Origin: a virus
Direction: 5' to 3' (one strand)
DNA: 64,000 nt
Virus record (IMG/VR): IMGVR_UViG_3300031578_000001
Within the stretch, counting starts at the first letter, position 1. Every line of letters starts with the position of its first letter. Positions 40,913 through 61,485 of this stretch are shown in pieces. The notes under the pieces are model-generated. The model did no database searches. It saw only the letters and a list, made by a program, of their open reading frames with translations, and was not told the DNA's origin. The position numbers and the translations under genes were made by a program.

Positions 40913-41894
40913 ACTGCTCCTCCGGCTTGCTCACGAATTCAGCCCTCTCCTCACCCCACACGACCTTCCCCTCGTCGATGCGGATGTCGAAGATTCTGGA
41001 GACCTTCACGATCTGGAGCTCATCGTCCAGGTACATCGTGGACAGCGAGACTCTGGAGATATGCTGATCCTTCGAAGGCTGGGTCTCGAGTATCCAGATA
41101 ACCTCAGGCTTGATCGAATCCGCGTACTCACGAATCCTCTTCCACCGCTCAGAGTTCGGAACCTGGATGTTGACCATGTGGACGTTAACGTCGTCCATCA
41201 TGAGAAGGGTCTTGTGTGGTCTGGGGGTCTTCTCCAGGAACTCAGCCACGGCCGTCTCTGTTCTCGGTCTGATAGAGCCGCCTTCGATGAAGCCGTGGAC
41301 GATGATCGGCTGAAACTTCATCTTCTCGTTGAGTCTGGTGTCGATGATGGAATCTGTTCTCTCCTTCGCGAACTTGAACGAAAGTTCCCGAACGTGGGCC
41401 ATCTCGTTCATGTTGAGGAGGGCCAGGACGGCGGATGGCGTGTAGTTGAGAGACTCGTTGGTGAGGGGCCGCACGGTGAGCTGCGAGATGTCGTCATCCA
41501 GCTTGAGAGGAAGGTTACCGCCGATCCTCGCGGAGTACCGATTGAGGAGCCTGTTCAGCAGGTACTTCATCTCCGCGCTCAGCATCTTGAAGGCGTGAGC
41601 TGCGGGACGGATCTCGGGATCGAGGCCTCTTCCGGCCGGATGACAGCGGTCGACGAGGTACTGGCGCAGTTCGATGATCGTGAGGTTGATGTTTTTGATC
41701 TTGGCGAGGACCGTGATCTCCTCCTCGTTGAGTTCGACCACATCCCCCACCGTGAAGGCCTTGCCTCCGACGATGAAGTTATCGCCGTCGACGTACTGCG
41801 TGAGAACGTCGTTCTCGGACTTTAGGAACTCCAGTTCCTTGTTGAAGTTCATCAAGAGATTCTGGATGATCGGGTTCGATTGCGGGTCACTCAT
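40884..41894 (-). CDS. hypothetical protein
   Basis: 336 aa ORF with GAGAAGG RBS. Confidence 0.7.
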   Translation of the reverse strand: MSDPQSNPIIQNLLMNFNKELEFLKSENDVLTQYVDGDNFIVGGKAFTVGDVVELNEEEITVLAKIKNINLTIIELRQYLVDRCHPAGRGLDPEIRPAAHAFKMLSAEMKYLLNRLLNRYSARIGGNLPLKLDDDISQLTVRPLTNESLNYTPSAVLALLNMNEMAHVRELSFKFAKERTDSIIDTRLNEKMKFQPIIVHGFIEGGSIRPRTETAVAEFLEKTPRPHKTLLMMDDVNVHMVNIQVPNSERWKRIREYADSIKPEVIWILETQPSKDQHISRVSLSTMYLDDELQIVKVSRIFDIRIDEGKVVWGEERAEFVSKPEEQYVDLVADRS

Positions 41895-42966
41895 GGTTCT
41901 CCTTCCTCTCGAACAAATGGTCCAGGTTGTCTACCTCGGGAATCTCCTGCTCGGGGAGTTCGTTGTCCGTGTCCTTGAGCTGATCGAAGGTCGCTCGGGC
42001 CTCGTCGTACCCGGTGATCCGGATGACCCGGTCGATGTGTTTCCGGATCATGTAGACCGAGAGCTTCCCGTTCCACGAGATGGCCTCCTCGGCGTCTTGA
42101 TTCCATCGCTGGGCCACGATGAGGAGGATCTTCGCGAAGGCTGTCTTGGAGACTCCTCTGGACTCGGCCGCGGCAAGAGTATCGTTCATGGCCTTGGCGT
42201 AGCGAGGCGGAACGGAGGTCGGGGAGTTGAGGAACTCGACGTCGTCGCCGGATTTGATGTCGAATTGGCCACAGAGAAGGTGTAGGTAGTAGAAGAAGGC
42301 TTTACCTCCCCATTTTTCGGCGTTACGGGCGCTGATCCCGTGTGACGTTCGTTGCCGTTTCAGGGCCTGTTTCTCGATAGCTTTCTCGGATCGTTTCCCG
42401 GCGTCCTCAGCACACTGTTCCAAGGTCTTCCGTGGGCCTTTTCTCACGGCCTCTCCCTTCGTCTGACTCGCCGGAGTTTGCTCCGGCGATATGGATGTTT
42501 CTTGGATCTGTTTCATTGGATCTGTTTCTGTTAGCCAAAAAAGCTCACCCCCCACGCCAATTTGGCTCACCCCCCACGCCAAATTTGCGCACCCCCCGAA
42601 GCCAGGGGAGATTCGACTCGGGTCAAGGGGGAGCACATTTACGGCGCTGAGACGAACCGGAATGGTCTTGGGAAGGCCATTATCGTCGACCCATCGGCGA
42701 ACCAGGCCGTTATCCACGAGTTCCTTGATGTATCTCGATACGGACCGTCGACATATACCAAGTTCGTTCGCTATGGAGACGTTGGTGTACCAGATGGGTC
42801 TGGTCTTGTTGGGCCATCCTGAGGCGAAGATGATGAAGGCGTACAGCAGGCGTGCGCCTGGGGTTAGGGCCTTAGCCGTTATGATATCTATTGGAAAACG
42901 ACTGAACCTTATCTCGGGCGAGTCCGGCAAACAAGCGGACTCGCGCCGTTTTGCGAGCTCCATCAT
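41887..42966 (-). CDS. HTH replication initiator (lambda O-like)
   Basis: LTPGARLLYAFI...WYTNVSIANELGICRRSVSRYIKELVDNGLV winged HTH; internal repeats. Confidence 0.7.
   Translation of the reverse strand: MMELAKRRESACLPDSPEIRFSRFPIDIITAKALTPGARLLYAFIIFASGWPNKTRPIWYTNVSIANELGICRRSVSRYIKELVDNGLVRRWVDDNGLPKTIPVRLSAVNVLPLDPSRISPGFGGCANLAWGVSQIGVGGELFWLTETDPMKQIQETSISPEQTPASQTKGEAVRKGPRKTLEQCAEDAGKRSEKAIEKQALKRQRTSHGISARNAEKWGGKAFFYYLHLLCGQFDIKSGDDVEFLNSPTSVPPRYAKAMNDTLAAAESRGVSKTAFAKILLIVAQRWNQDAEEAISWNGKLSVYMIRKHIDRVIRITGYDEARATFDQLKDTDNELPEQEIPEVDNLDHLFERKENHE
42491..42604. repeat. iteron-like direct repeats plus GATCT 13-mers (candidate replication origin)
   Basis: GCTCACCCCCCACGCCAA x2 (42543, 42565) + degenerate third (42587), 22-bp period; TTGGATCTGTTTC x2 (42502, 42516). 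Confidence 0.7.
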
Positions 42967-45658: not shown

Positions 45659-45688
45659 GGGCGGAGCGCCCGATTGGACGCCCCGCCC
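45659..45688 (-). other. conserved GC hairpin, copy 1 (3' of Ubl gene)
   Basis: GGGCGGGGCGUCC-AAUC-GGGCGCUCCGCCC, 13 bp incl. 2 G-U. Confidence 0.75.
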
Positions 45689-45696
45689 ATGATTAC

Positions 45697-45951
45697 TTAT
45701 CCCCTCGACTTGGAACTCGTCTTGAAGTAGATGTGATCACCGTCCTCGAGGACAGTGCTCTCGTCCATGATCTCGCCGTTGACCAGGGCGGCCATGTCGT
45801 TGGTGATATTCATCTCATCGGAAAACCGGAATCGGATCTGCTTGACGGTGACGATCTCTCCCTCATTGAGGGTGAGTTCGATCGGTTCCATGTCTTCCCC
45901 GAGATCGCTGTTGGGTTCCCGTTCGATCGTGATGACTCTTGTGAGATCCAC
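45697..45951 (-). CDS. ubiquitin-like (beta-grasp) protein
   Basis: 84 aa, GTG with GGAGG RBS; ALVNGE...TVLEDGDHIYF ThiS/MoaD-like pattern; C-terminal Gly (KSRG). Confidence 0.8.
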   Translation of the reverse strand: MDLTRVITIEREPNSDLGEDMEPIELTLNEGEIVTVKQIRFRFSDEMNITNDMAALVNGEIMDESTVLEDGDHIYFKTSSKSRG

Positions 45952-46657
45952 GGCTCCTCCCTTTCGTAACGAGGGACTTCTGAAGAAGGGGAATCATCTT
46001 CCCCGTTCTTGTGTCCACACGGATTTCGTTGATCGATGGCTTGGCCTTCGATAGCACATGATGAACGAGGATTTCCATGGCTACCGCCGTTGCCTTGTTG
46101 GCCAGAGCCGTCTGAGGCCCCGACTCGAGGCATCCTCCCTCGCCCGGAAGCGGATCCTTATCCGCGAGGATTTCCGGTGCGATGTGGGAGACTTTCGGAA
46201 GTATGTTGCGTCCGCTTTTACGGACGTATGCTTGCGCCTGGCCGCCGTGATTGTCGTTCCCTCCGACGACATAGATGGCGTTCTTTTTACGGGCTACCTC
46301 GGTCTCGAGGAATACCCTTACACCGTCTCTGTCGACACATCCGAGGAACAGATAGCATCTATCGATCCAGAGCGACCTATGCTTCTCCAGGGTTTCGTGG
46401 TTGAGGTACTCAGGCACGGCATGGATCATGACGTGGCCATCCAGGTCGAACCGTTCCTTGGCCATCGTTGCGATCATGATGGCCTTGTTCTTTCCGATAG
46501 CCGACGGGAAGAACTGCCTGGTCAGATTATTCAGTTCGACCGAATCTCCATCGATGACGTAAAGAGACGACTTCTTCTCAAGGGAGAGTAGATACCTGAT
46601 GATGTCTTCCCACAGATGGTAGGTGATTCCACCTGCTCCAAGGATCGCTACTTTCAT
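45863..46657 (-). CDS. E1/ThiF-family adenylyltransferase
   Basis: ILGAGG, IDGDSVELNNLTRQ, GKNKA, GCVD, candidate catalytic Cys (GGCLE); ATGA-coupled to JAB gene. Confidence 0.88.
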   Translation of the reverse strand: MKVAILGAGGITYHLWEDIIRYLLSLEKKSSLYVIDGDSVELNNLTRQFFPSAIGKNKAIMIATMAKERFDLDGHVMIHAVPEYLNHETLEKHRSLWIDRCYLFLGCVDRDGVRVFLETEVARKKNAIYVVGGNDNHGGQAQAYVRKSGRNILPKVSHIAPEILADKDPLPGEGGCLESGPQTALANKATAVAMEILVHHVLSKAKPSINEIRVDTRTGKMIPLLQKSLVTKGRSRGSHKSHHDRTGTQQRSRGRHGTDRTHPQ

Positions 46658-47802
46658 TGTCTCTCCTTCGAGTCGAAGTCCGGATCCGCATCCATGTCGT
46701 CGATCATGAAGTCGATCTGCTCGCTGATGGCTATATCCAGTTCCTCGAGATGTTCCATGGGAGCGATCGTTGAGAGGATCTCCACGAACCTGTCGTAGCA
46801 ACCGTGTTCCACGAAATACGTGGCGAAGACGCGCAGGACATCGTCGTGTGTCCCGTCTGCTGGTGGCCTGATCCCGGTCTGGGTGAACGTGAATATCCTC
46901 TCGTGGGGCTTCTCGGTTTTGGGGAGGTCAGCCGACATCTTTTTGACCGAATGCACCTTGAACTTGTCCGTGGCCAGTTCCGTCGCCTCTTCTTCGGTCT
47001 CGGTCCAGTAGACGACGTTGCCGGTGCGCTTGCTCAGGAGGAGGAATCCCGTCTTTTTACTCCTGACTTCTTCCAGCGGAAGGATCCTCTCCATGAACCA
47101 TCGGTACTCTTCGTCAGTGACGCGGTGGCTCGTGACCGATTCCGTAATCTTATTGATGCGGATGTCATGGCGTTCGCCCGCACCGGTGATGGATCCTACG
47201 ATGGACGGGGTATCATGATTCAGGTTTCCGATGACGATATAGATTCCCTCGCTCTCCATCTCGTTTTCGTCGTCGGTTCTCGAGAATCCGGCTCCGAACG
47301 CGCCATGGGAATGGATGGTTCCCGAGTGTCTGCCCTCGTAGCAGTATTCCAGATAGGCCGATCCGATGATCCCGAACTTAGCCCGATCGAGGACGTAGGA
47401 CTGGTGCTCCATATCCCACTTGAGAATGACGATCATCTCGGACTTATAGTCCTCGTAGGCTCTTCTGAAGATCCCCACGACTCTCGCAATGATGCTCATC
47501 GGGATGGGATGGATATGCTTGATGAAGAATCCAGGGTGGATCTTCCTCAGGGACGGGGCGACGTTCACGGGTCTGACTACGTGGAACTCGGCGGCTCTGT
47601 CCGGTCCTCCCACGTGCATGACCTTATAGATGCCGTCGTTTCCCGCCACGTAGGCGAAGTGTTTCTTGGACTGCTCAATGGCGTCCTGCACCGTTGTGTA
47701 TGGACGCTCGTAGAGGTCGTCCAAAGATACTTGTCTGGGCGTTCTCGAAGACGAATCCGATTTCGGTATTGTCCTTTGCTGCTGCTGCATTCGAGACTCC
47801 AA
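46654..47802 (-). CDS. JAB/MPN+ metallopeptidase (deubiquitinase-like) with C-terminal extension
   Basis: E...GTIHSHGAFGAGFSRTDD JAB motif. Confidence 0.88.
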   Translation of the reverse strand: MESRMQQQQRTIPKSDSSSRTPRQVSLDDLYERPYTTVQDAIEQSKKHFAYVAGNDGIYKVMHVGGPDRAAEFHVVRPVNVAPSLRKIHPGFFIKHIHPIPMSIIARVVGIFRRAYEDYKSEMIVILKWDMEHQSYVLDRAKFGIIGSAYLEYCYEGRHSGTIHSHGAFGAGFSRTDDENEMESEGIYIVIGNLNHDTPSIVGSITGAGERHDIRINKITESVTSHRVTDEEYRWFMERILPLEEVRSKKTGFLLLSKRTGNVVYWTETEEEATELATDKFKVHSVKKMSADLPKTEKPHERIFTFTQTGIRPPADGTHDDVLRVFATYFVEHGCYDRFVEILSTIAPMEHLEELDIAISEQIDFMIDDMDADPDFDSKERQ

Positions 47803-47998
47803 TCATTTCCTTGATGATCTCTATAGCCCCGACCTCCTCGAGACGTTTGATGAACCTGTCGCGGGCTACGGGATAATGTTTGCCGGTATCGGTCTTCTTC
47901 ACGGCATCAAGTAGAGACTCGATCCTGTTTCTCGGTTCGGTCCAGATGGTCGCATTTTTGAGTCTCATAATGCAATTCTCGAATTCGATATAGTTCAT
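47675..47998 (-). CDS. hypothetical protein in Ubl operon
   Basis: ATGA-coupled to E2 stop; 3' end overlaps JAB start. Confidence 0.5.
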   Translation of the reverse strand: MNYIEFENCIMRLKNATIWTEPRNRIESLLDAVKKTDTGKHYPVARDRFIKRLEEVGAIEIIKEMIGVSNAAAAKDNTEIGFVFENAQTSIFGRPLRASIHNGAGRH

Positions 47999-48681
47999 TT
48001 AGCCCTCTCCACCAGTTTCCCGAATGTCTCGGTCTGGACCCACGTGAGACTCGTGATATCACTCCACTCCTTGCCAGCGTCCTTGGTCCATTTCGCCCAG
48101 CACTCGAAAGTGTCAACGGGTTTTTCGATCGGACCCTTTCCTTCCACCATTTCTGCTGGAAGATTGTCGATACCGCCTTTTAGATGATCGCTGTGGGCGG
48201 ACTTGTTGACCCAGGTAACGATCTTCGAGACGATCTCTGAGATCGGACCGGACCTTCCAACCTCGCTTACGAATCCGGTGCCCATGCACATTTCTCCGTC
48301 GAGACTGATATTCGGAAGTGGGACAATATATAGCGGGTCGTAGAAGTTGTGGATCTGGTTCATTGCGAACCGGAGATAGTAATTCACGATGAGATCGCCG
48401 GTGAACACAAAGGCGAAGACACGCCACGGAATCGCGATGGTATAGAACTTTCTCCCGTATTTGAGGACCTGCTTCTCGGGAGGTCGTTGGACGAAGTAGA
48501 GAGTTTTGTTCGTATTCTTCTTGAAGACGATAGTTCCGTACGGCAGGATCGGGGTCTCTATGTTCTTGATCTGGAGCGCCTTTATGGCGTCTTCGATGGA
48601 CACCGTCTTTCCGCGGGTAATGGTGAGCTGTCTCACGGTGTCATCCGGGCAGAAGAGAACGTAGCTGCCTTCATCGAGCAT
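47995..48681 (-). CDS. prokaryotic E2-like protein (family D / PRTRC protein B-like)
   Basis: IPWRVF...LYIVPLPNISLDGEMCMG motif with putative catalytic Cys. Confidence 0.8.
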   Translation of the reverse strand: MLDEGSYVLFCPDDTVRQLTITRGKTVSIEDAIKALQIKNIETPILPYGTIVFKKNTNKTLYFVQRPPEKQVLKYGRKFYTIAIPWRVFAFVFTGDLIVNYYLRFAMNQIHNFYDPLYIVPLPNISLDGEMCMGTGFVSEVGRSGPISEIVSKIVTWVNKSAHSDHLKGGIDNLPAEMVEGKGPIEKPVDTFECWAKWTKDAGKEWSDITSLTWVQTETFGKLVERAK

Positions 48682-49685
48682 GTAAGATTCTCCAACTCAT
48701 CAAACTTTGCCTTCAGAGCCGCCCCCTTGTTCTGGTCGAGACTGGTGATGAACGCGATCCTGCCTTTCCACTGATCCATCGGGACCGGGATGATGGCCTT
48801 CTTTCTTTTCGCTTTATTGAGGATTTTTCTCGCCTCCTGATTCAAACCGAGAAGTGTGACCAGGCCGTCCTTCTTTTCGATTCCCTGGGCCTGCCTGATC
48901 TGTTTTCTGAACTCGTTGTCGAGATAAAAACCTGCGGGTACTATGGCCGCCCGCAGGTCCGTGATCGCGTTGTGGAGGTCTGCTCTCATTGATCTCCAGT
49001 ACGATCTTTTAGGTCCGATCTTGTCGTTGATCTGCACCCCGCAGACGATGAGCCGGGCCGGCTTATGGTGAAATCTCGTTTTGTTTTCGTTGATCTCGAA
49101 TCCTTCGGACTCGAGGATGTAGCGCACCTGGTAGAGGAGTTTCCAGACTTCTCTGGAATCGCACCCGAAGGTGAGGTTGTCGCAGTACGCGCTGAACACG
49201 ACAGGGCAATGATGTTCTCTGTTCCAACGGATGATGAGTCCACGGATAAGGGAGACGATTCGTTTCATGGCGACCGACGACAGGAATGGACTTGTCGGCG
49301 CCCCTTGCGGGAGAGCCTTTTTCCCGTCGATCATGTCGAAGCAGGTGTCCTTGATCTCGTCGATGAGCCACTTCGGAGCCCTCTCGTAGGAGAGAGACTC
49401 CTCCACGTGGTGTTCCAAGACCGAATGGAAGAAATCGCTGATATCGATTTTCAGAATGCAGTCCGGTGAACGTAACGTCCCATCGGCTTGCTTGAGCAGG
49501 AGGGCCTTGGCGTTGGTCCTTACGGACCGGCCCCGCATGTAGGCGTGGATGTGGTATCCCGGGTGGATCTTTAGGCGTTTGAGCCATCCCAGGATTTCGA
49601 GCTGTTTCTTCTTCAGCTTCGCATCCGGAATCCTGATCTCCCGGAATCCCCCACCTCGTTTCTGAATCTTGACGATCTGGTACAT
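48633..49685 (-). CDS. retron-type reverse transcriptase
   Basis: Y..VKIQKRGGGFREI.IP..KLK..Q, HAYMRGRSVRTNA, LKIDISDFFHSV, LPQGAPTSPFLS, YCDN, INENKT, VCGVQIN (VTG-like region Y). Confidence 0.88.
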   Translation of the reverse strand: MYQIVKIQKRGGGFREIRIPDAKLKKKQLEILGWLKRLKIHPGYHIHAYMRGRSVRTNAKALLLKQADGTLRSPDCILKIDISDFFHSVLEHHVEESLSYERAPKWLIDEIKDTCFDMIDGKKALPQGAPTSPFLSSVAMKRIVSLIRGLIIRWNREHHCPVVFSAYCDNLTFGCDSREVWKLLYQVRYILESEGFEINENKTRFHHKPARLIVCGVQINDKIGPKRSYWRSMRADLHNAITDLRAAIVPAGFYLDNEFRKQIRQAQGIEKKDGLVTLLGLNQEARKILNKAKRKKAIIPVPMDQWKGRIAFITSLDQNKGAALKAKFDELENLTCSMKAATFSSARMTP

Positions 49686-49694
49686 GTCTCCCCC

Positions 49695-49736
49695 TTAGAG
49701 CGCAGCGATGAGCGCACGCAGGACCGTGAGAATCAC
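49695..49736 (-). CDS. 13-aa leader ORF (MILTVLRALIAAL)
   Basis: AAGGAGG RBS 5 nt before GTG; TAA just upstream of the RT RBS. Confidence 0.5.
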   Translation of the reverse strand: MILTVLRALIAAL

Positions 49737-49777
49737 GCCAGCCTCCTTTCTGAGAAACGTACGAAAACCCATAGGGC

Positions 49778-49899
49778 TGGAGAGGGAGCCAGCACGTGGC
49801 CGGCTCCCTCTCCAATGTGTGGAGGAGTAGTTTTATTAGACTCTCTCGGGTAAAAGGCCAGAGAGAGTAGGGGCGGAGCCCATTGCTGGACCCCGCCCC
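49778..49899 (-). ncRNA. candidate retron-like structured ncRNA
   Basis: three hairpins on the minus strand (16 bp at 49778-49814; 8+2 bp at 49840-49868; 13 bp with GCAA tetraloop at 49870-49899) directly upstream of RT. Confidence 0.6.
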
Positions 49900-49916
49900 A
49901 TGGTGATCGCGGAGGA

Positions 49917-50456
49917 CTATGCCTCCTCTTCCTCGTCGTCGTCTTCCTCTTCCTCGTCGGTCGGATCGGCGGGCTTTTCCTCGCCTTTCTCGTCCTTCTC
50001 CTCGTCCCGCTTCTCGAATTCCTTCTCGAGTTTCTCGAATCTGCGGCGGATCTTCTTCGCCTGTTTGTCCGAGACCTCGTGGTCGAGGTGGTCCTCGATG
50101 TAGTCGATGACCTCTTCCGGGTTGGCGGGGATGGCTGCGGGCAGGTCCTTCGGATCGAGATCTTTCGGGATCTTGACGAAGGGGGCCGCCGTCAGCACGG
50201 CCGCTAAGCCGGCTCCTCGGAGCTGGTGGTTCTTGAAGTTCGCGCCGTCCTCGTTCTCGAATTCCTGAACGCGGGAAACCGCGTCTTCGGATGCCTCGAA
50301 GGGGGCGTCGGAGTCGGCCATGGCGGATCTGATGGCCAAGCCAAGGGCCAGGCCGGTTGCTCCACCGATTCCGATCGTGAGACCGACCGCGACAGGACTC
50401 ATCTCCTCGCGGTCTTCTTCGGTACGACTGTTCCTGTAGGAAATCACTCTCGCCAT
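49917..50456 (-). CDS. membrane-associated protein with glycine-zipper-like helix and acidic tail
   Basis: VAVGLTIGIGGATGLALGLAI hydrophobic segment; D/E-rich C-terminus; GGAGG RBS. Confidence 0.75.
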   Translation of the reverse strand: MARVISYRNSRTEEDREEMSPVAVGLTIGIGGATGLALGLAIRSAMADSDAPFEASEDAVSRVQEFENEDGANFKNHQLRGAGLAAVLTAAPFVKIPKDLDPKDLPAAIPANPEEVIDYIEDHLDHEVSDKQAKKIRRRFEKLEKEFEKRDEEKDEKGEEKPADPTDEEEEDDDEEEEA

Positions 50457-50527
50457 CTTACTACTCCTCCAAAGATGGCCTCGTATCGGACCGTAAAGTT
50501 CTCATGGATCTCCATGAGTACGGTCCG
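50452..50527 (-). promoter_or_regulatory. two tandem hairpins in the 5' leader of the RT/Ubl arm
   Basis: GCCATCTT/AAGATGGC stem with RBS in 12-nt loop; CGGACCGTA..CTCATGG/CCATGAG.TACGGTCCG 16-bp stem at 50487-50527. Confidence 0.6.
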
Positions 50528-57842: not shown

Positions 57843-60799
57843 TGCCAAAGATCTCAAGAAAGTTCGTTAAGTGGAAGGTAACGCTTGATGGTGTCGAGAT
57901 CCCTTGGAAGACCATTTCTCTTCAGGTCGGGGTTGACTCGCCTGGTCATATTACAATCGACATCGAGAGCGATCCGGTACTCAGGAAACTGAGAGCCGGT
58001 ATGAAGATTCATCTCTGGATGTACGACGACAAGATCGAGGGAGACGATGATCTCGACAAGCTCTTCCTGTTTTGGGAGGGAGATCTCAAGGTCAGTAGCT
58101 ACACCAGGTCTTACGGATCGAGGGTCTACGGTATCGTGGGTATCGGGGAATTTGCCGCATTCGGTCGCAGTAAGCTATTCGCTCACGGATTCGGGACCAT
58201 CTCGAATACCCATCTCGTCTCTGGTTCCGTATTCGTCTCGACGGATTCCACTTCGGCTAAGCAGCTTGTCAACTACACCATGTTCGGAAAAGCATTCGAT
58301 CCGAAGACACCGAACGATATTGGAAAAGAAGTCCCCTTTCGTGACACCAAGAATCCGAACTATTCCGAGAGGCTTCTCAGGCTTCTTTCCTACTTCTCTT
58401 CGTACAATGCCTTGTTCAGGCTCCAGATGGTTAGGTCGAACCTCTTCGGAAAGATCGTTGCTTTCCAAGATGATGCCCTCGGACGTCTTCTGCCGAGGGC
58501 GCTCGCTTCGGATTACTTCAATCAAGGGAACACGAAGTTACCGCCAGAATCCACCATGCTTGACCTCATCGCTATCTTCAACCAGATGATGTTCTATCAC
58601 TTCTCCAGCATGGCTGGTCCGGTCCTTCCAACTGATCTGGTCACGGCGGAGAAGCCCCCATACCTGTACCTTCCTGGCGTCAAAGCGGATGATCATATTT
58701 ATGCTATGCCGAGGAGGTTCTTGAGAAACGACTACATTCTTCTGCCGGAGACCTTTTACGCGATCCCACCGTCGTGCAACATGATCTTTCCGGAGCACAT
58801 GAATCAATTCTCGCTGACGAGAGATCTGTTCTCCGAGCCTACAAGAGCCCTCGTCTCCAATATTCACCTTAACTCACAGCTGTCGGCTGTGGCTCCGGAC
58901 ACGATCTTCAGGTACGCGGACGAGGGCAAAGACTCCGACCCGGCATCGTTCTGGTCTATCAACAAGGACGGCATCAAGGGTGACGGGAAGGTCACGAGCC
59001 CCTACCAGGCGAAATTGGACTCAGGCAAGAGCATCAACCTGTTCGGTGCCGTGAGTGACGAGGAGATCGATCGCGGTATCATCACGACCTCGAGTTATCC
59101 GCCATTTGAGTTCTTTTCAGCCGTGTCTAACGTGTTTGATCTGAAAACCCAGTACGGCAGGAACAGGATCAGGGAGATCGTGGACCGAACCGATAAGATG
59201 GCGGCAAGCGTTATTGAAGGAAGCACCACCCGTGATCGGTCTTTCCTATACATGATGAAGGCAATTGCCGACTACACCTATACGCTCGAGAAGTTCAGGC
59301 GTAACGTGACCATCAGCATCGTTGGGCACAGGTGGATCGTTCCTGGGTTCCCCTGTGTCATCCTGGCCTCGGATGGATCCTACCTCGCGTACGTGAAGGG
59401 GTATGCCCTCAGCATCTCGTCTGACGGCGATGAGATGTCGAACGTGGATCTCGACTTTGTCAGGCCTTTTCCGGAGATCGATTTCTCCTACATCAAGCGT
59501 GTGGAAGAGGCGTCTGAGGAACTGGCAAAGATCGAGGGTGAGACCAAGAAAGCCGAGGGTAAGATTGACGTTCTCGGAGAGGAAGGAGCCAGAGGACTTG
59601 AGGAGTACCTCAAGGGAATGGAGACGATAACGAATGTTATCTACAGCAAGGATAGGGATCTGGACACCGCAACTCGGGGGTATGATCGTCTGAAGTCGGC
59701 AGCTATTAAGGCCTACAAAGCAATTAAATCCGACCCGAATATGTTGGAGAAGACTGGATACTCCAAGAGTGAACTTACAAGAATTGTCGAAAATTTCAAG
59801 AACGTGCGTCCGGGAAGTCGGTACAACCAGGGGACTGTCGATGCTTACGTCGGGGCATATTCTGTAGAGACGCAGATGGCATTCTGCCGCTATGCGAATG
59901 ATATGGTCCAGAGATACGTAGCGGTCTTCAAAGAAACGATGAATACGGCCGTCACGAGTCTCGACTCCAAGAAGATTCCAAATAACCCGTGGATGGGGGA
60001 TCTGACGAAGGATCTAAGAAATGCCGTGTCCCAGGCGAAGTTAGACGACAACGTGCCCTCCGATTTCATGACGCCGCCGATCTTCGGTAATCTCGACCTT
60101 CTATCTGTGGTCAAGGCAGAGGAGATCTACAACGAAATCTTCGGGGCCAAGAAGGCGCTGAGCGGTCTTGTCGAGTCACAAGATATATCTCGCAGTACAC
60201 CGTCCGGAACGTCGGCCAGAGTGATCACCCTGAAGAAGCAGGCCTATACCAGGTTCGCTAATTTTGCCAAGGCTCTGAATCGAGTGTTCCCTGTGACCGG
60301 CAGACAGATGTATGAGGAGGAGGGCCAGGCAGGATCCAGCGAATGGGAGCAGGTGTCGGCGGACACGACGACTGAGAAGTCGGTGCGGGATTGGGCCGAG
60401 GAAAAGTTCATAAAACGCGAGCGTCTCCAAAGTCTCAGGCACTTCCTCAAGGTAAACGGACTCAATCTCGAGAGGCCCATGTCGGAGCCTCCGACTCCGA
60501 TGAGGTTCATGCACTTTGTTCCATCCCAGGTGAAGGAGATCACGTCCCCGATTGGCAATCTCGTCTGGGACGATACCCTATTCAGTAAGATCGTGGACGA
60601 GTTCAACATCAGGAGAAGGGAAGTTCTCGTCCGTGAGGAGAACGGAGACGTCAGAAGGTTGCCCAAGATTTCCGATAGCCAGATCGACCAACTCAGGAAG
60701 TCGGTCAAGGATCCGTTCCTGACCACGAAGGCCCGGCAGTCAATCATTCTTGACTATGCCAGCAGGCACTTCGGTTCGAGGGGATATGGTGGCAGTTGA
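57842..60799 (+). CDS. baseplate hub-like protein
   Basis: 985 aa; N-terminal KVTLDGVEIP..ISLQVG..PG.ITIDI and ...RNVTISIVG..WIVPGFP hub-like pattern. Confidence 0.55.
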   Translation: MPKISRKFVKWKVTLDGVEIPWKTISLQVGVDSPGHITIDIESDPVLRKLRAGMKIHLWMYDDKIEGDDDLDKLFLFWEGDLKVSSYTRSYGSRVYGIVGIGEFAAFGRSKLFAHGFGTISNTHLVSGSVFVSTDSTSAKQLVNYTMFGKAFDPKTPNDIGKEVPFRDTKNPNYSERLLRLLSYFSSYNALFRLQMVRSNLFGKIVAFQDDALGRLLPRALASDYFNQGNTKLPPESTMLDLIAIFNQMMFYHFSSMAGPVLPTDLVTAEKPPYLYLPGVKADDHIYAMPRRFLRNDYILLPETFYAIPPSCNMIFPEHMNQFSLTRDLFSEPTRALVSNIHLNSQLSAVAPDTIFRYADEGKDSDPASFWSINKDGIKGDGKVTSPYQAKLDSGKSINLFGAVSDEEIDRGIITTSSYPPFEFFSAVSNVFDLKTQYGRNRIREIVDRTDKMAASVIEGSTTRDRSFLYMMKAIADYTYTLEKFRRNVTISIVGHRWIVPGFPCVILASDGSYLAYVKGYALSISSDGDEMSNVDLDFVRPFPEIDFSYIKRVEEASEELAKIEGETKKAEGKIDVLGEEGARGLEEYLKGMETITNVIYSKDRDLDTATRGYDRLKSAAIKAYKAIKSDPNMLEKTGYSKSELTRIVENFKNVRPGSRYNQGTVDAYVGAYSVETQMAFCRYANDMVQRYVAVFKETMNTAVTSLDSKKIPNNPWMGDLTKDLRNAVSQAKLDDNVPSDFMTPPIFGNLDLLSVVKAEEIYNEIFGAKKALSGLVESQDISRSTPSGTSARVITLKKQAYTRFANFAKALNRVFPVTGRQMYEEEGQAGSSEWEQVSADTTTEKSVRDWAEEKFIKRERLQSLRHFLKVNGLNLERPMSEPPTPMRFMHFVPSQVKEITSPIGNLVWDDTLFSKIVDEFNIRRREVLVREENGDVRRLPKISDSQIDQLRKSVKDPFLTTKARQSIILDYASRHFGSRGYGGS

Positions 60800-61485
60800 T
60801 AACTGACAACCAATTGATCGTGCAGGCCAAGGCCGGGAATCTGATGGCGAAGAACGAACTGATTCGCCGGTACAAGATTCTTCTCAAGATCAAGGTCTCG
60901 GCCTACAGTCGGGCTCCGATCCCAACGGCTGCCCTCGACGGTGAGGCTATGAAGATTCTGCTGCACACGGTCGAGAAGTTCGATCCGAGTCGAGGTATCC
61001 AGTTCAAGACCTTCCTCGAGCAGAATCTCAAGGGACTGTATCGCTACGCGGCCAAGACCAAGAACGTGGCACGGATCCCGGAGCACAAGGTTCTCCAGAT
61101 CAATCTGTTCCAGCAGGCCAAGTCAATCGTTCAGACCCAGAAGGGCCGGGAGCCAACGGCTCACGAGCTCGCCGACTCACTCGGTTGGTCTCCCACTCAG
61201 GTTCAGAGCATGGAGACGGCGCTGAGTCGGCGTGATATTGCTGCTTCTGGAATCGAGACTCTTCACGCGCAGGAGCGGTTCAAGGATAGGATGGAGGATC
61301 TTCTCGAGTTCGAGTATTTCGGAATGGTCCCGGAGGAGAAACTCATCTACGACTTCAGCCTCGGCAGGCATGGGAAGCCGAGGCTCGACAGCGTGAAAGA
61401 CATCGCCGCCAGGACGGGCCTGAGCACCGATAAGGTGTATGCGATCAAGAGTAAGATCGCCCAAAGGATCACAGCGAGGATTTGA
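60796..61485 (+). CDS. second sigma-70 family factor (FliA/SigF-like)
   Basis: QAKAGN.MAKNELI..Y, EKFDPSRGIQFKTF, GREPTAHELADSLGWS, region-4 HTH VKDIAARTGLS. Confidence 0.85.
   Translation: MITDNQLIVQAKAGNLMAKNELIRRYKILLKIKVSAYSRAPIPTAALDGEAMKILLHTVEKFDPSRGIQFKTFLEQNLKGLYRYAAKTKNVARIPEHKVLQINLFQQAKSIVQTQKGREPTAHELADSLGWSPTQVQSMETALSRRDIAASGIETLHAQERFKDRMEDLLEFEYFGMVPEEKLIYDFSLGRHGKPRLDSVKDIAARTGLSTDKVYAIKSKIAQRITARI

What the first reader, a model, noticed from the sequence alone, without database searches (positions are those of the whole stretch)
45659..50527. Retron-type RT and structured ncRNA joined in one operon with a complete ubiquitin-like conjugation system
Seen: one contiguous minus-strand unit: membrane protein, three-hairpin ncRNA, 13-aa leader, RT, E2, small ORF, JAB, E1, Ubl. 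The RT stop overlaps the E2 start by 49 nt; E2/ORF and JAB/E1 have ATGA overlaps. Established: E1+E2+JAB+Ubl cassettes (PRTRC-like; Bil; the Cap2/Cap3 enzymes of type II CBASS) and retrons (ncRNA+RT+effector) are each known as separate systems. As far as I recall, the described retron effector classes do not include Ubl enzymes. Inference: this phage may carry an undescribed RT-Ubl system in which msDNA/RT senses a trigger and the Ubl machinery is the effector, or the RT/msDNA complex is itself a conjugation substrate or regulator. It could act in counter-defence or in competition with other phages.
Basis: partly seen in the sequence, partly recalled or inferred. Interest (0 to 1): 0.92.

Follow-up and report, generated by a model that had tools for sequence, protein, structure and literature searches.

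The report
Phage retron-like RT joined to ubiquitin-like kit
A large uncultured phage carries a retron-type reverse transcriptase whose gene overlaps the first gene of a complete ubiquitin-like protein-tagging kit (E2, JAB protease, E1, small tag); the pairing is inherited together in related phages, I found no paper describing it, and its purpose is unknown.

Summary
On the minus strand, 50476-45659 reads: membrane/acidic protein, 230-nt three-hairpin spacer, RT, E2, small ORF, JAB, E1, Ubl. The 49-nt RT/E2 overlap and both ATGA overlaps are as stated.

The RT is retron-clade by four independent comparisons. However, all 16 members of its family read YxDN where sister lineages keep YADD.

The E2 is a divergent Prok-E2_D. 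The JAB carries HxHx7SxxD, the E1 is ThiF-type, and the Ubl ends in Gly.

RT and E2 (and once E1) share five further metagenome contigs. A 28%-identical RT (L007) repeats the TM gene / hairpins / RT / overlapping E2 layout. RT and E2 divergences track each other (r = 0.99).

Two complete 50-kb phages carry a differently ordered Ubl-X-JAB-ThiF-RT block. The same E2-JAB-E1 cassette occurs with no RT in two cultured jumbo phages, so the RT is an add-on to a phage-borne Ubl module.

Whether the hairpins are a retron msr/msd is unresolved: no Rfam match and no clear a1/a2 pair. No paper in the library links retron RTs to ThiF/JAB. This scan has noted the pairing before on other DNA (notes from at least 32 genomes).

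Verdict: a real composite module and a new variant of known kinds, with its mechanism inferred only.

The parts
50460..50476 (-). 5' arm of a 17-nt (15/17) long-range inverted repeat; it contains the Shine-Dalgarno of the membrane-protein gene
   Evidence: used as the closing stem in the MFE fold of 49805-50485
49917..50456 (-). 179-aa protein with a Gly/Ala-rich hydrophobic segment and an acidic low-complexity tail; first gene of the leftward unit
   Evidence: no family hit; coding-type GC3 of 0.78; L007 has an analogous TM ORF upstream of its RT
49871..49898 (-). Hairpin H1: 13-bp G+C-rich stem with two G-U pairs and a GCAA loop
   Evidence: its sequence type occurs only twice in the 120.9-kb record; L007 has a GCAA-capped 14-bp hairpin at the same place
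49840..49868 (-). Hairpin H2 (8+2 bp)
   Evidence: I23
49815..49831 (-). Single-stranded CUCCUCC linker (anti-Shine-Dalgarno-like). It is the 3' arm of the long-range repeat and alternatively pairs with the RT's GGGGGAG ribosome-binding site
49778..49814 (-). Hairpin H3 (16 bp)
   Evidence: I4
49695..49736 (-). Possible 13-codon GTG leader ORF whose stop lies in the RT's ribosome-binding site
   Evidence: sequence only; unverified
48633..49685 (-). Retron-clade reverse transcriptase, 350 aa. Motif C reads YCDN, NAxxH reads NAKAL, VTG reads VCG. It has a conserved C-terminal helical domain and a Ser-rich tail
47995..48681 (-). E2-like protein (divergent Prok-E2_D), 228 aa, with an invariant Pro-Asn...Cys132
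47675..47998 (-). 107-codon ORF coupled to the E2 stop by ATGA; function unknown; its 3' third overlaps the JAB start
46654..47790 (-). JAB/JAMM metalloprotease (HSH-x7-S-xx-D) with unassigned N- and C-terminal regions
45863..46657 (-). ThiF-type E1 adenylating enzyme, 264 aa
45697..45891 (-). Small ThiS-like Ubl, 64 aa from the ATG (84 aa from an upstream GTG), ending ...SRG directly before the stop
45659..45688 (-). Second copy of the H1-type 13-bp hairpin (AAUC loop) right after the Ubl stop; it closes the block

Best explanation
This is a phage-borne composite conflict module. A retron-clade RT has been recruited onto a pre-existing phage ubiquitin-like conjugation cassette (E2, JAB, E1, Ubl of the Prok-E2_D / PRTRC-like kind), and the two have since been inherited as one unit.

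Shown:
- The RT gene overlaps the E2 gene.
- RT and E2 co-occur and co-diverge.
- A second, differently ordered RT+Ubl block exists in other phages.

Inferred mechanism:
- E1 adenylates the C-terminal Gly of the 64-aa Ubl and passes it to Cys132 of E2.
- E2 transfers it to lysines of a target.
- JAB trims or reverses the conjugate.
- The RT, made in fixed ratio with E2 through the overlap, binds structured RNA from its own 5' leader. It acts as the sensing or targeting subunit that decides when or on what the cascade acts.

This parallels type II CBASS, where E1/E2 and JAB enzymes tune a nucleotide-polymerase-type sensor. Because the whole family carries YxDN, I expect short or altered cDNA synthesis, or none, rather than a classical long msDNA.

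The module sits at the head of the leftward replication-gene operon, so it probably acts early. It most likely acts in phage-host or phage-phage conflict; the direction (defence or counter-defence) is not determined.
For: RT identity:
- PADLOC's 25 best models listed are all retron RTs, 4e-39 to 2e-22.
- The 12 best PDB sequences are all retron RTs, 1e-29 to 1e-18, against 1e-10 for group II RTs.
- The 17 best Foldseek hits are all retron RTs.

E2 identity:
- Invariant P-N...C.
- The model has pLDDT 91.5.
- The highest-scoring chains in the fold search are nearly all E2/UBC, Z to 5.7.
- Fused relatives pass the Pfam Prok-E2_D cut-off.

Linkage:
- A 49-nt overlap in the window and 70 nt in L007.
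- Shared contig lengths for RT and E2 homologues: 15614 (also E1), 4869, 71542, 3895 and 2740.
- Pairwise RT and E2 identities correlate at r = 0.986 over 7 paired sources.
- The RT family plus L007 forms one clade, support 98.

Independent architecture:
- Ubl-X-JAB-ThiF-RT in two complete 50-kb phages.
- These carry IR-closed structured RNAs next to the RT, z = -4.5 and -5.0.

Structured leader: z = -6.6, and a like hairpin layout in L007, z = -7.6.
Against: - No experiment and no transcript data.
- The same E2-JAB-E1 cassette works without any RT in phages KLEB27-3 and Arash, so the Ubl module does not need an RT.
- The second catalytic Asp is Asn in all 16 family members, and NAxxH/VTG are altered, so reverse transcription is unproven.
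- No Rfam family matches the leader, and no convincing a1/a2 pair with a branching G was found.
- Co-occurrence beyond L007 rests on contig-length fingerprints, not on DNA I could read. Two such matches (2028, 3445) looked like coincidences.
- No E1 homologue was detected for the 71542-bp contig.
Confidence: 0.7

Rival explanations
1. Classical retron reading. The spacer is a true msr-msd, the RT makes msDNA, and the membrane protein and/or the Ubl cascade is the effector released when msDNA is disturbed. This would be a retron of a new type used by the phage against competing phages.
For: - Retron-clade RT.
- Strongly structured RNA directly upstream, with G-U pairs that work only on the transcribed strand.
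- A 17-nt inverted repeat (15/17) that closes a domain ending in H1 and H2.
- A TM protein upstream in both the window and L007.
- The other architecture has IR-closed RNAs beside its YADD RT.
Against: - YxDN, NAxxL and VCG replace the retron signatures throughout the family.
- No Rfam match.
- The only long inverted repeat encloses a 179-codon gene, unlike any described msr.
- Its arms are Shine-Dalgarno/anti-Shine-Dalgarno sequences, which pair for trivial reasons. Similar 12-nt repeats are common in this stretch.
Confidence: 0.25
2. Regulatory-leader reading. The hairpins are not a template. H1 and its copy after Ubl would be transcript-end or stabiliser hairpins that mark the borders of an inserted cassette. 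The CUCCUCC linker would be an anti-Shine-Dalgarno switch controlling translation of the membrane gene and the RT. The RT would act as an RNA-binding, possibly non-polymerising, subunit.
For: - H1-type hairpins occur only twice in 120.9 kb, exactly at the two ends of the RT-to-Ubl block.
- The linker pairs alternatively with the RT's ribosome-binding site or the membrane gene's.
- YxDN is fixed in the family while the other RT motifs stay invariant.
Against: - Neither hairpin has a U tract, and neither was called by the terminator scan.
- Two copies cannot prove selection on structure.
- Relatives with YADD (L007, L002, L004) suggest polymerisation mattered at least ancestrally.
Confidence: 0.4
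3. Unrelated neighbours. The RT and the Ubl cassette are separate accessory genes that happen to lie together in a variable region of the phage.
For: Each occurs widely without the other: classical retrons in L003, L005 and most of L006-L085, and RT-less cassettes in cultured jumbo phages.
Against: - Overlapping reading frames kept down to 28% RT identity.
- Co-occurrence on five further contigs.
- Co-divergence at r = 0.986.
- A second independent gene order joins ThiF/JAB/Ubl to an RT.
Confidence: 0.07

Closest known systems
Retrons (RT + msr-msd ncRNA + accessory effector; types I-XIII of Mestre et al. 2020, PMC7736814)
   Same: - The RT belongs to the retron clade by sequence and predicted fold. 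Best models are type XIII, III-A, II-A and Ec107-like; best structures are Ec83, Ec86, Ec67 and Ec78.
- A structured RNA region lies directly upstream.
- Accessory genes are tightly linked and co-diverging.
   Different: - The accessory set is a four-enzyme Ubl cascade, which appears in none of the 13 types.
- Motif C is YxDN; NAxxH and VTG are altered.
- The RT scores below every NCBIfam retron cut-off (111.7 against 235 bits for St85).
- No msr/msd could be recognised.
- The carrier is a large lytic-type phage.
PRTRC cassette / Prok-E2_D systems (TIGR03735-03742; Pfam PF14460, PF14464, PF00899) of plasmids and integrative elements
   Same: - ThiF-type E1 with best NCBIfam hit PRTRC_ThiF.
- JAB with best hit PRTRC_A.
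- E2 of the Prok-E2_D kind.
- A small Ubl.
- Carried by a mobile element.
   Different: - All scores are far below the PRTRC cut-offs (48.5 against 144.75; 26.7 against 101.8).
- No ParB-like or other PRTRC components were found.
- It is joined to an RT.
- The nearest real relatives are RT-less cassettes in jumbo phages (KLEB27-3 gp194-196, Arash gp246c-248c).
Type II CBASS (CD-NTase + effector + Cap2 E1/E2 + Cap3 JAB) and Bil (BilABCD) anti-phage systems
   Same: E1/E2/JAB chemistry is attached to a conflict system. In CBASS the cascade tunes a polymerase-fold sensor enzyme, which is the analogy behind my proposed mechanism.
   Different: - No CD-NTase.
- E1 and E2 are separate proteins.
- A free-standing Ubl is present, unlike CBASS.
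- Only a weak PADLOC E1-E2 hit (0.0025).
- It is encoded by a phage rather than by the host.
- Membership is not claimed.

Membership tests
Retron | RT belongs to the retron clade of prokaryotic RTs | tested here: met
   PADLOC retron RT models score 4e-39 to 2e-22. Retron RTs fill the first 12 PDB sequence hits and the first 17 Foldseek hits. Drt2/Drt3a score only 1e-4 to 1e-5.
Retron | Catalytic YxDD in motif C | tested here: not met
   YCDN in the window. All 16 family members read Y-x-D-N, while sisters L007, P0017, P0018 and P0020 read YADD.
Retron | Retron-specific NAxxH and VTG motifs | tested here: not met
   NAKAL and VCG in the window; consensus SIKTNAEALL and VCGVQIN in the family.
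Retron | Adjacent msr-msd ncRNA closed by a1/a2 inverted repeats with a branching G | tested here: inconclusive
   Three stable hairpins, z = -6.6. No Rfam match at E<=10. The only long inverted repeat (15/17) encloses the membrane gene plus H1 and H2. No relatives' DNA was available for covariation.
Retron | Production of msDNA | not testable with these tools
   Needs expression and nucleic-acid analysis.
Retron | Conserved, co-evolving accessory gene(s) next to the RT | tested here: met
   E2 overlaps the RT in the window and in L007. Shared contigs. r = 0.986 between RT and E2 identities.
Prok-E2_D / PRTRC-like Ubl conjugation cassette | ThiF-family E1 | tested here: met
   PF00899 at 34.7 bits against a 28.1 cut-off. 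PRTRC_ThiF is the best NCBIfam hit but lies below its cut-off.
Prok-E2_D / PRTRC-like Ubl conjugation cassette | UBC-fold E2 with catalytic Cys after a (H)PN motif | tested here: met
   LPN-x7-C is invariant in 40 homologues. The highest-scoring chains are nearly all E2/UBC, Z up to 5.7 over 115-129 residues. Relatives pass PF14460. The window protein itself scores only 14.2 bits.
Prok-E2_D / PRTRC-like Ubl conjugation cassette | JAB/JAMM protease motif HxHx7SxxD | tested here: met
   HSHGAFGAGFSRTD read in the translation. It aligns to the same motif in KLEB27-3 gp195. Prok-JAB scores 23.3 bits, just under the 25 cut-off.
Prok-E2_D / PRTRC-like Ubl conjugation cassette | Small beta-grasp Ubl ending in Gly | tested here: inconclusive
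   It ends ...SRG before the stop. ThiS-like 0.012 and TGS 5e-4 are both below cut-off. No structure was predicted.
PRTRC system proper (TIGR03735-03742) | ParB-like protein and the further PRTRC proteins B-F; scores above the equivalog cut-offs | tested here: not met
   Only PRTRC_A and PRTRC_ThiF were hit, both far below cut-off. No other PRTRC model was hit.
Type II CBASS | CD-NTase with fused E1-E2 (Cap2) and JAB (Cap3) | tested here: not met
   No CD-NTase or effector model was hit. E1 and E2 are separate genes. PADLOC E1-E2 scores only 0.0025.
Diversity-generating retroelement | DGR-type RT with template/variable repeat pair | tested here: not met
   No direct repeat of 30 nt or more links the RT region to a target gene. 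The RT's best matches are retrons, not DGR RTs.

The most novel reading that the evidence does not exclude
RT-plus-Ubl blocks are a distinct, widespread class of phage-encoded systems in which a nucleic-acid-handling enzyme (RT with its RNA or cDNA) directs or gates ubiquitin-like protein tagging. They would have been assembled at least twice, in two gene orders with different ThiF lineages. In the strongest form, the RT-nucleic-acid complex is itself the substrate or the specificity factor of the E2. That would be a link between reverse transcription and protein conjugation with no described precedent.
Probability: 0.3. Interest if true: 0.9.

Novelty: new variant of a known kind. Interest (0 to 1): 0.8.

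Why it matters
Retrons and bacterial ubiquitin-like cascades are both recent entries in the phage-bacterium conflict field, and each has been described only on its own.

A stable, translationally coupled union of the two, carried by phages, suggests one of two things. Either a retron-type RT can be regulated by Ubl conjugation, or Ubl conjugation can be steered by an RT-RNA complex.

It also gives a handle on the uncharacterised PRTRC-like cassettes. The family offers natural controls: RT-less cassettes in cultured phages (KLEB27-3, Arash), YADD against YxDN lineages, and two gene orders. These make the question directly testable.

Tried and rejected
It was swamped by ordinary retrons, and only L007 proved useful.
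- IMG/VR scans with the RT, with the neighbouring 393-aa protein and with L007's E2 found no close kin. The genome-contig scan found none either.
- E2 alignments were too divergent for the search for related loci.
- 'relatives' is not available for a virus record.
- The E2 has no tblastn match in the phage collection.
- PDB sequence searches found nothing significant (best E 0.099, unrelated proteins) with the E2 alignment and no match for JAB or E1.
- The Atlas search of the small ORF gave nothing usable.
- The contig-length matches 2028 (L006) and 3445 (P0024) were set aside as probable coincidences, because L006 holds no E2-like ORF.
- RT-E2 fusion proteins were sought among long E2-family members. 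Their N-terminal parts are not RTs.
- The DGR reading was rejected.
- The window Ubl and an Arash ORF with a similar ...HIYF...G end give no BLASTP alignment, so that resemblance is anecdotal.
- The 'structural protein' label on the Arash homologues comes from a proteome of 116 proteins that includes many enzymes (PMC10585845). It shows expression, not virion function.


Full report
**Setting.** The window is bases 31049-95048 of a 120,910-bp IMG/VR virus record that CheckV rates 63% complete. Identical proteins also occur on a 182,080-bp contig. The window encodes a family-A-type DNA polymerase, a ribonucleotide reductase large subunit, a DnaB-type helicase, a replication initiator, a weak major-head-protein match and a sigma-factor-like protein. 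It is therefore a large tailed phage of roughly 180-190 kb. The standard genetic code fits. No close relative is in the GenBank phage set or in IMG/VR.

**Observation.** The unit starts at a divergent region near 50.5 kb and runs as follows:
- a 179-aa protein with one Gly/Ala-rich hydrophobic segment and an acidic tail (49917-50456);
- a 230-nt spacer;
- RT (48633-49685);
- E2-like (47995-48681);
- a 107-codon ORF (47675-47998);
- JAB (46654-47790);
- E1 (45863-46657);
- Ubl (45697-45891).

The RT/E2 overlap is 49 nt. The E2/small-ORF and JAB/E1 junctions are ATGA. All the genes show the phage's coding signature (GC3 about 0.7). The exception is the last ~125 nt of the small ORF, where the JAB frame carries the signal.

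**The parts.**

*RT.* It matches RVT_1 at 6e-19, retron RT models of PADLOC at up to 4e-39, and NCBIfam retron St85 at 111.7 bits, below the 235-bit cut-off. A profile of its family finds twelve retron RTs first in the PDB (Ec83 1e-29, Ec86, Ec67, Ec78, Kva2), then group II RTs at 1e-10 and Drt2 at 1e-5. The AlphaFold model (pLDDT 85) matches 17 retron RT structures before any other RT.

*E2.* It scores only 0.036 against Prok-E2_D. An exhaustive profile search, however, finds 889 relatives at E<=1e-3. Forty of these share an invariant Pro, Pro-Asn and Cys in the pattern LPN-x7-C, the E2 HPN...Cys signature. Long fused relatives pass the Pfam Prok-E2_D cut-off. The model (pLDDT 91.5) gives a hit list that is almost purely E2/UBC/UEV, with Z up to 5.7 over 115-129 residues.

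*JAB, E1 and Ubl.* The JAB has HSH-x7-S-xx-D. The E1 passes the ThiF cut-off, and its best NCBIfam model is PRTRC_ThiF. The Ubl has weak ThiS-like and TGS matches and ends ...SRG at the stop.

**An unusual RT.** In the alignment of 16 family clusters (37-81% identical, full length) motif C is Y-x-D-N without exception. Asp81 of motif A and PQGAPTSP are invariant. NAxxH reads NAxxL and VTG reads VCG. The sister lineages (L007, P0017, P0018, P0020) keep YADD. The Asp-to-Asn change is therefore a fixed, selected feature of this clade, not decay. What it does to polymerisation cannot be told from sequence.

*Contig fingerprints.* The protein database reports the longest contig for each protein.
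- Homologues of RT and E2 share contigs of 4869, 3895, 71542 and 2740 bp.
- A 15,614-bp contig holds RT (P0240), E2 (P0241) and E1 (P0075).
- Two other length matches were judged coincidental, which shows the limit of this method. Five matches with parallel identity ranks are nevertheless unlikely to be chance.

*Locus L007.* This is a 1.8-kb metagenome contig with an RT only 28% identical to the window's.
- It shows the same layout: a TM protein gene, a 14-bp GCAA-capped hairpin, a second hairpin, the RT, and an E2-family ORF overlapping the RT's end by 70 nt.
- In an RT tree of 153 sequences the 16-member family is one clade (support 100). L007+P0020 is its sister, and the 20-row set is supported at 98.
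- Across seven paired sources, RT and E2 pairwise identities correlate at r = 0.986. The pairs are not independent, so this describes co-divergence and is not a test.

**A second architecture, and cassettes without RT.** Two complete ~50-kb phage genomes (L002, L004; CheckV 100%) carry the following series: Ubl (77-78 aa, one ending ...GGCC), a large unknown protein, a JAB-motif protein, ThiF (2e-21), then a YADD RT. L004 has two ~280-nt RNAs closed by long inverted repeats just downstream. Their ThiF is only distantly like the window's E1, and their RT is not resolved as sister to the window's clade. The union of RT and Ubl enzymes may therefore have arisen more than once.

Conversely, the window's kind of cassette (E2 family, JAB, E1, in the same order) is present in two cultured jumbo phages: Bacillus phage vB_BauM_KLEB27-3 (gp196-194) and Salmonella phage Arash (gp248c-246c). 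It is also on a faecal phage scaffold. Neither complete genome encodes any RT. The Arash E2 and E1 homologues were detected by mass spectrometry of phage preparations (PMC10585845). The Ubl cassette is thus an autonomous phage module, and the RT is an addition in some lineages.

**The spacer.** It folds into H1 (13 bp, GCAA loop), H2 (8+2 bp) and H3 (16 bp), and is far more stable than shuffles. G-U pairs show that the transcribed strand is the relevant one. No Rfam family matches at E<=10.

The CUCCUCC linker between H2 and H3 can pair in two ways. One partner is the RT's ribosome-binding site. The other lies 628 nt upstream: the 17-nt segment (15/17) holding the membrane gene's ribosome-binding site. 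The MFE fold of the whole 681-nt stretch uses that long-range stem. This could be a retron-like a1/a2 stem, with H2/H1 as template next to a2. It could equally be plain translational control by an anti-Shine-Dalgarno element. Similar short repeats are frequent here, so I leave it open.

H1's sequence type occurs exactly twice in the 120.9-kb record: after the membrane gene and after the Ubl gene. The two copies differ by compensated changes. They bracket the RT-to-Ubl block like cassette borders. Neither has a U tract.

**What is known.** Full-text searches for retron with ThiF/JAB/ubiquitin-like, and for reverse transcriptase with ThiF, phage and ubiquitin, returned nothing relevant. The retron classification paper does not mention these enzymes. 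PRTRC is cited only as an annotation. The library lacks most subscription journals, so this is absence in what I could search.

Notes of this scan record the same pairing in at least 32 other genomes. I treat them as leads. My own loci L002/L004 fit the 'Ubl-E2-JAB-E1-RT with template RNAs' form described there. One note warned of a supposed template RNA that was really an antisense gene; here the spacer's only antisense ORF is 40 codons.

**Verdict.** I file it as a new variant that joins two known kinds: not a member of any described retron type, and not a PRTRC system proper.

Noticed in passing
L088 (OM634661.1, 166-171 kb) and L089 (OQ632216.1, 176-180 kb): Cultured jumbo phages KLEB27-3 and Arash carry an E2-family / JAB / ThiF cassette of the window's kind but no RT anywhere in their complete genomes. 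In the Arash record gp248c and gp246c are labelled 'structural protein'. The E2-family genes (KLEB27-3 gp196, Arash gp248c) are not recognised as such in the records.
   Followed up: partly
L002:3862-8849 and L004:4052-8678, with L004:9026-9616: Complete ~50-kb phages carry Ubl, a large unknown protein, JAB, ThiF and a YADD RT in one row. In L004 two ~280-nt RNAs closed by long inverted repeats follow. An SNF2 helicase lies a few kb downstream in both.
   Followed up: partly
L003:6274-8930 and L005:6319-8930: Viral contigs that carry, next to tail genes (tail X and gpD in L003, a spike/baseplate protein in L005), a PRTase-CE + wHTH protein followed by a YSDD RT. This is an ordinary PRTase-type retron on a phage.
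   Followed up: no
window 45659-45688 and 49871-49898: The only two GGGCGGGG...CCGCCC hairpins in the 120.9-kb record flank the RT-to-Ubl block. They may mark an inserted cassette or shared RNA-processing sites.
   Followed up: partly
proteins P0132, P0152, P0156, P0177, P0183, P0193, P0201: Proteins of 690-770 aa with a Prok-E2_D domain at about residues 390-600 and an N-terminal half that matches no Pfam family.
   Followed up: no
L089:110-307: A 65-codon ORF in phage Arash, upstream of its cassette, ends ...HIYFSRRTGTKG, reminiscent of the window Ubl's ...HIYFKTSSKSRG. BLASTP finds no alignment.
   Followed up: partly
window 41887-42966 (-) and 60796-61485 (+): A replication-initiator-like protein (phrog_270, 4e-9) and a sigma-factor-like protein (phrog_351, 2e-16).
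   Followed up: no
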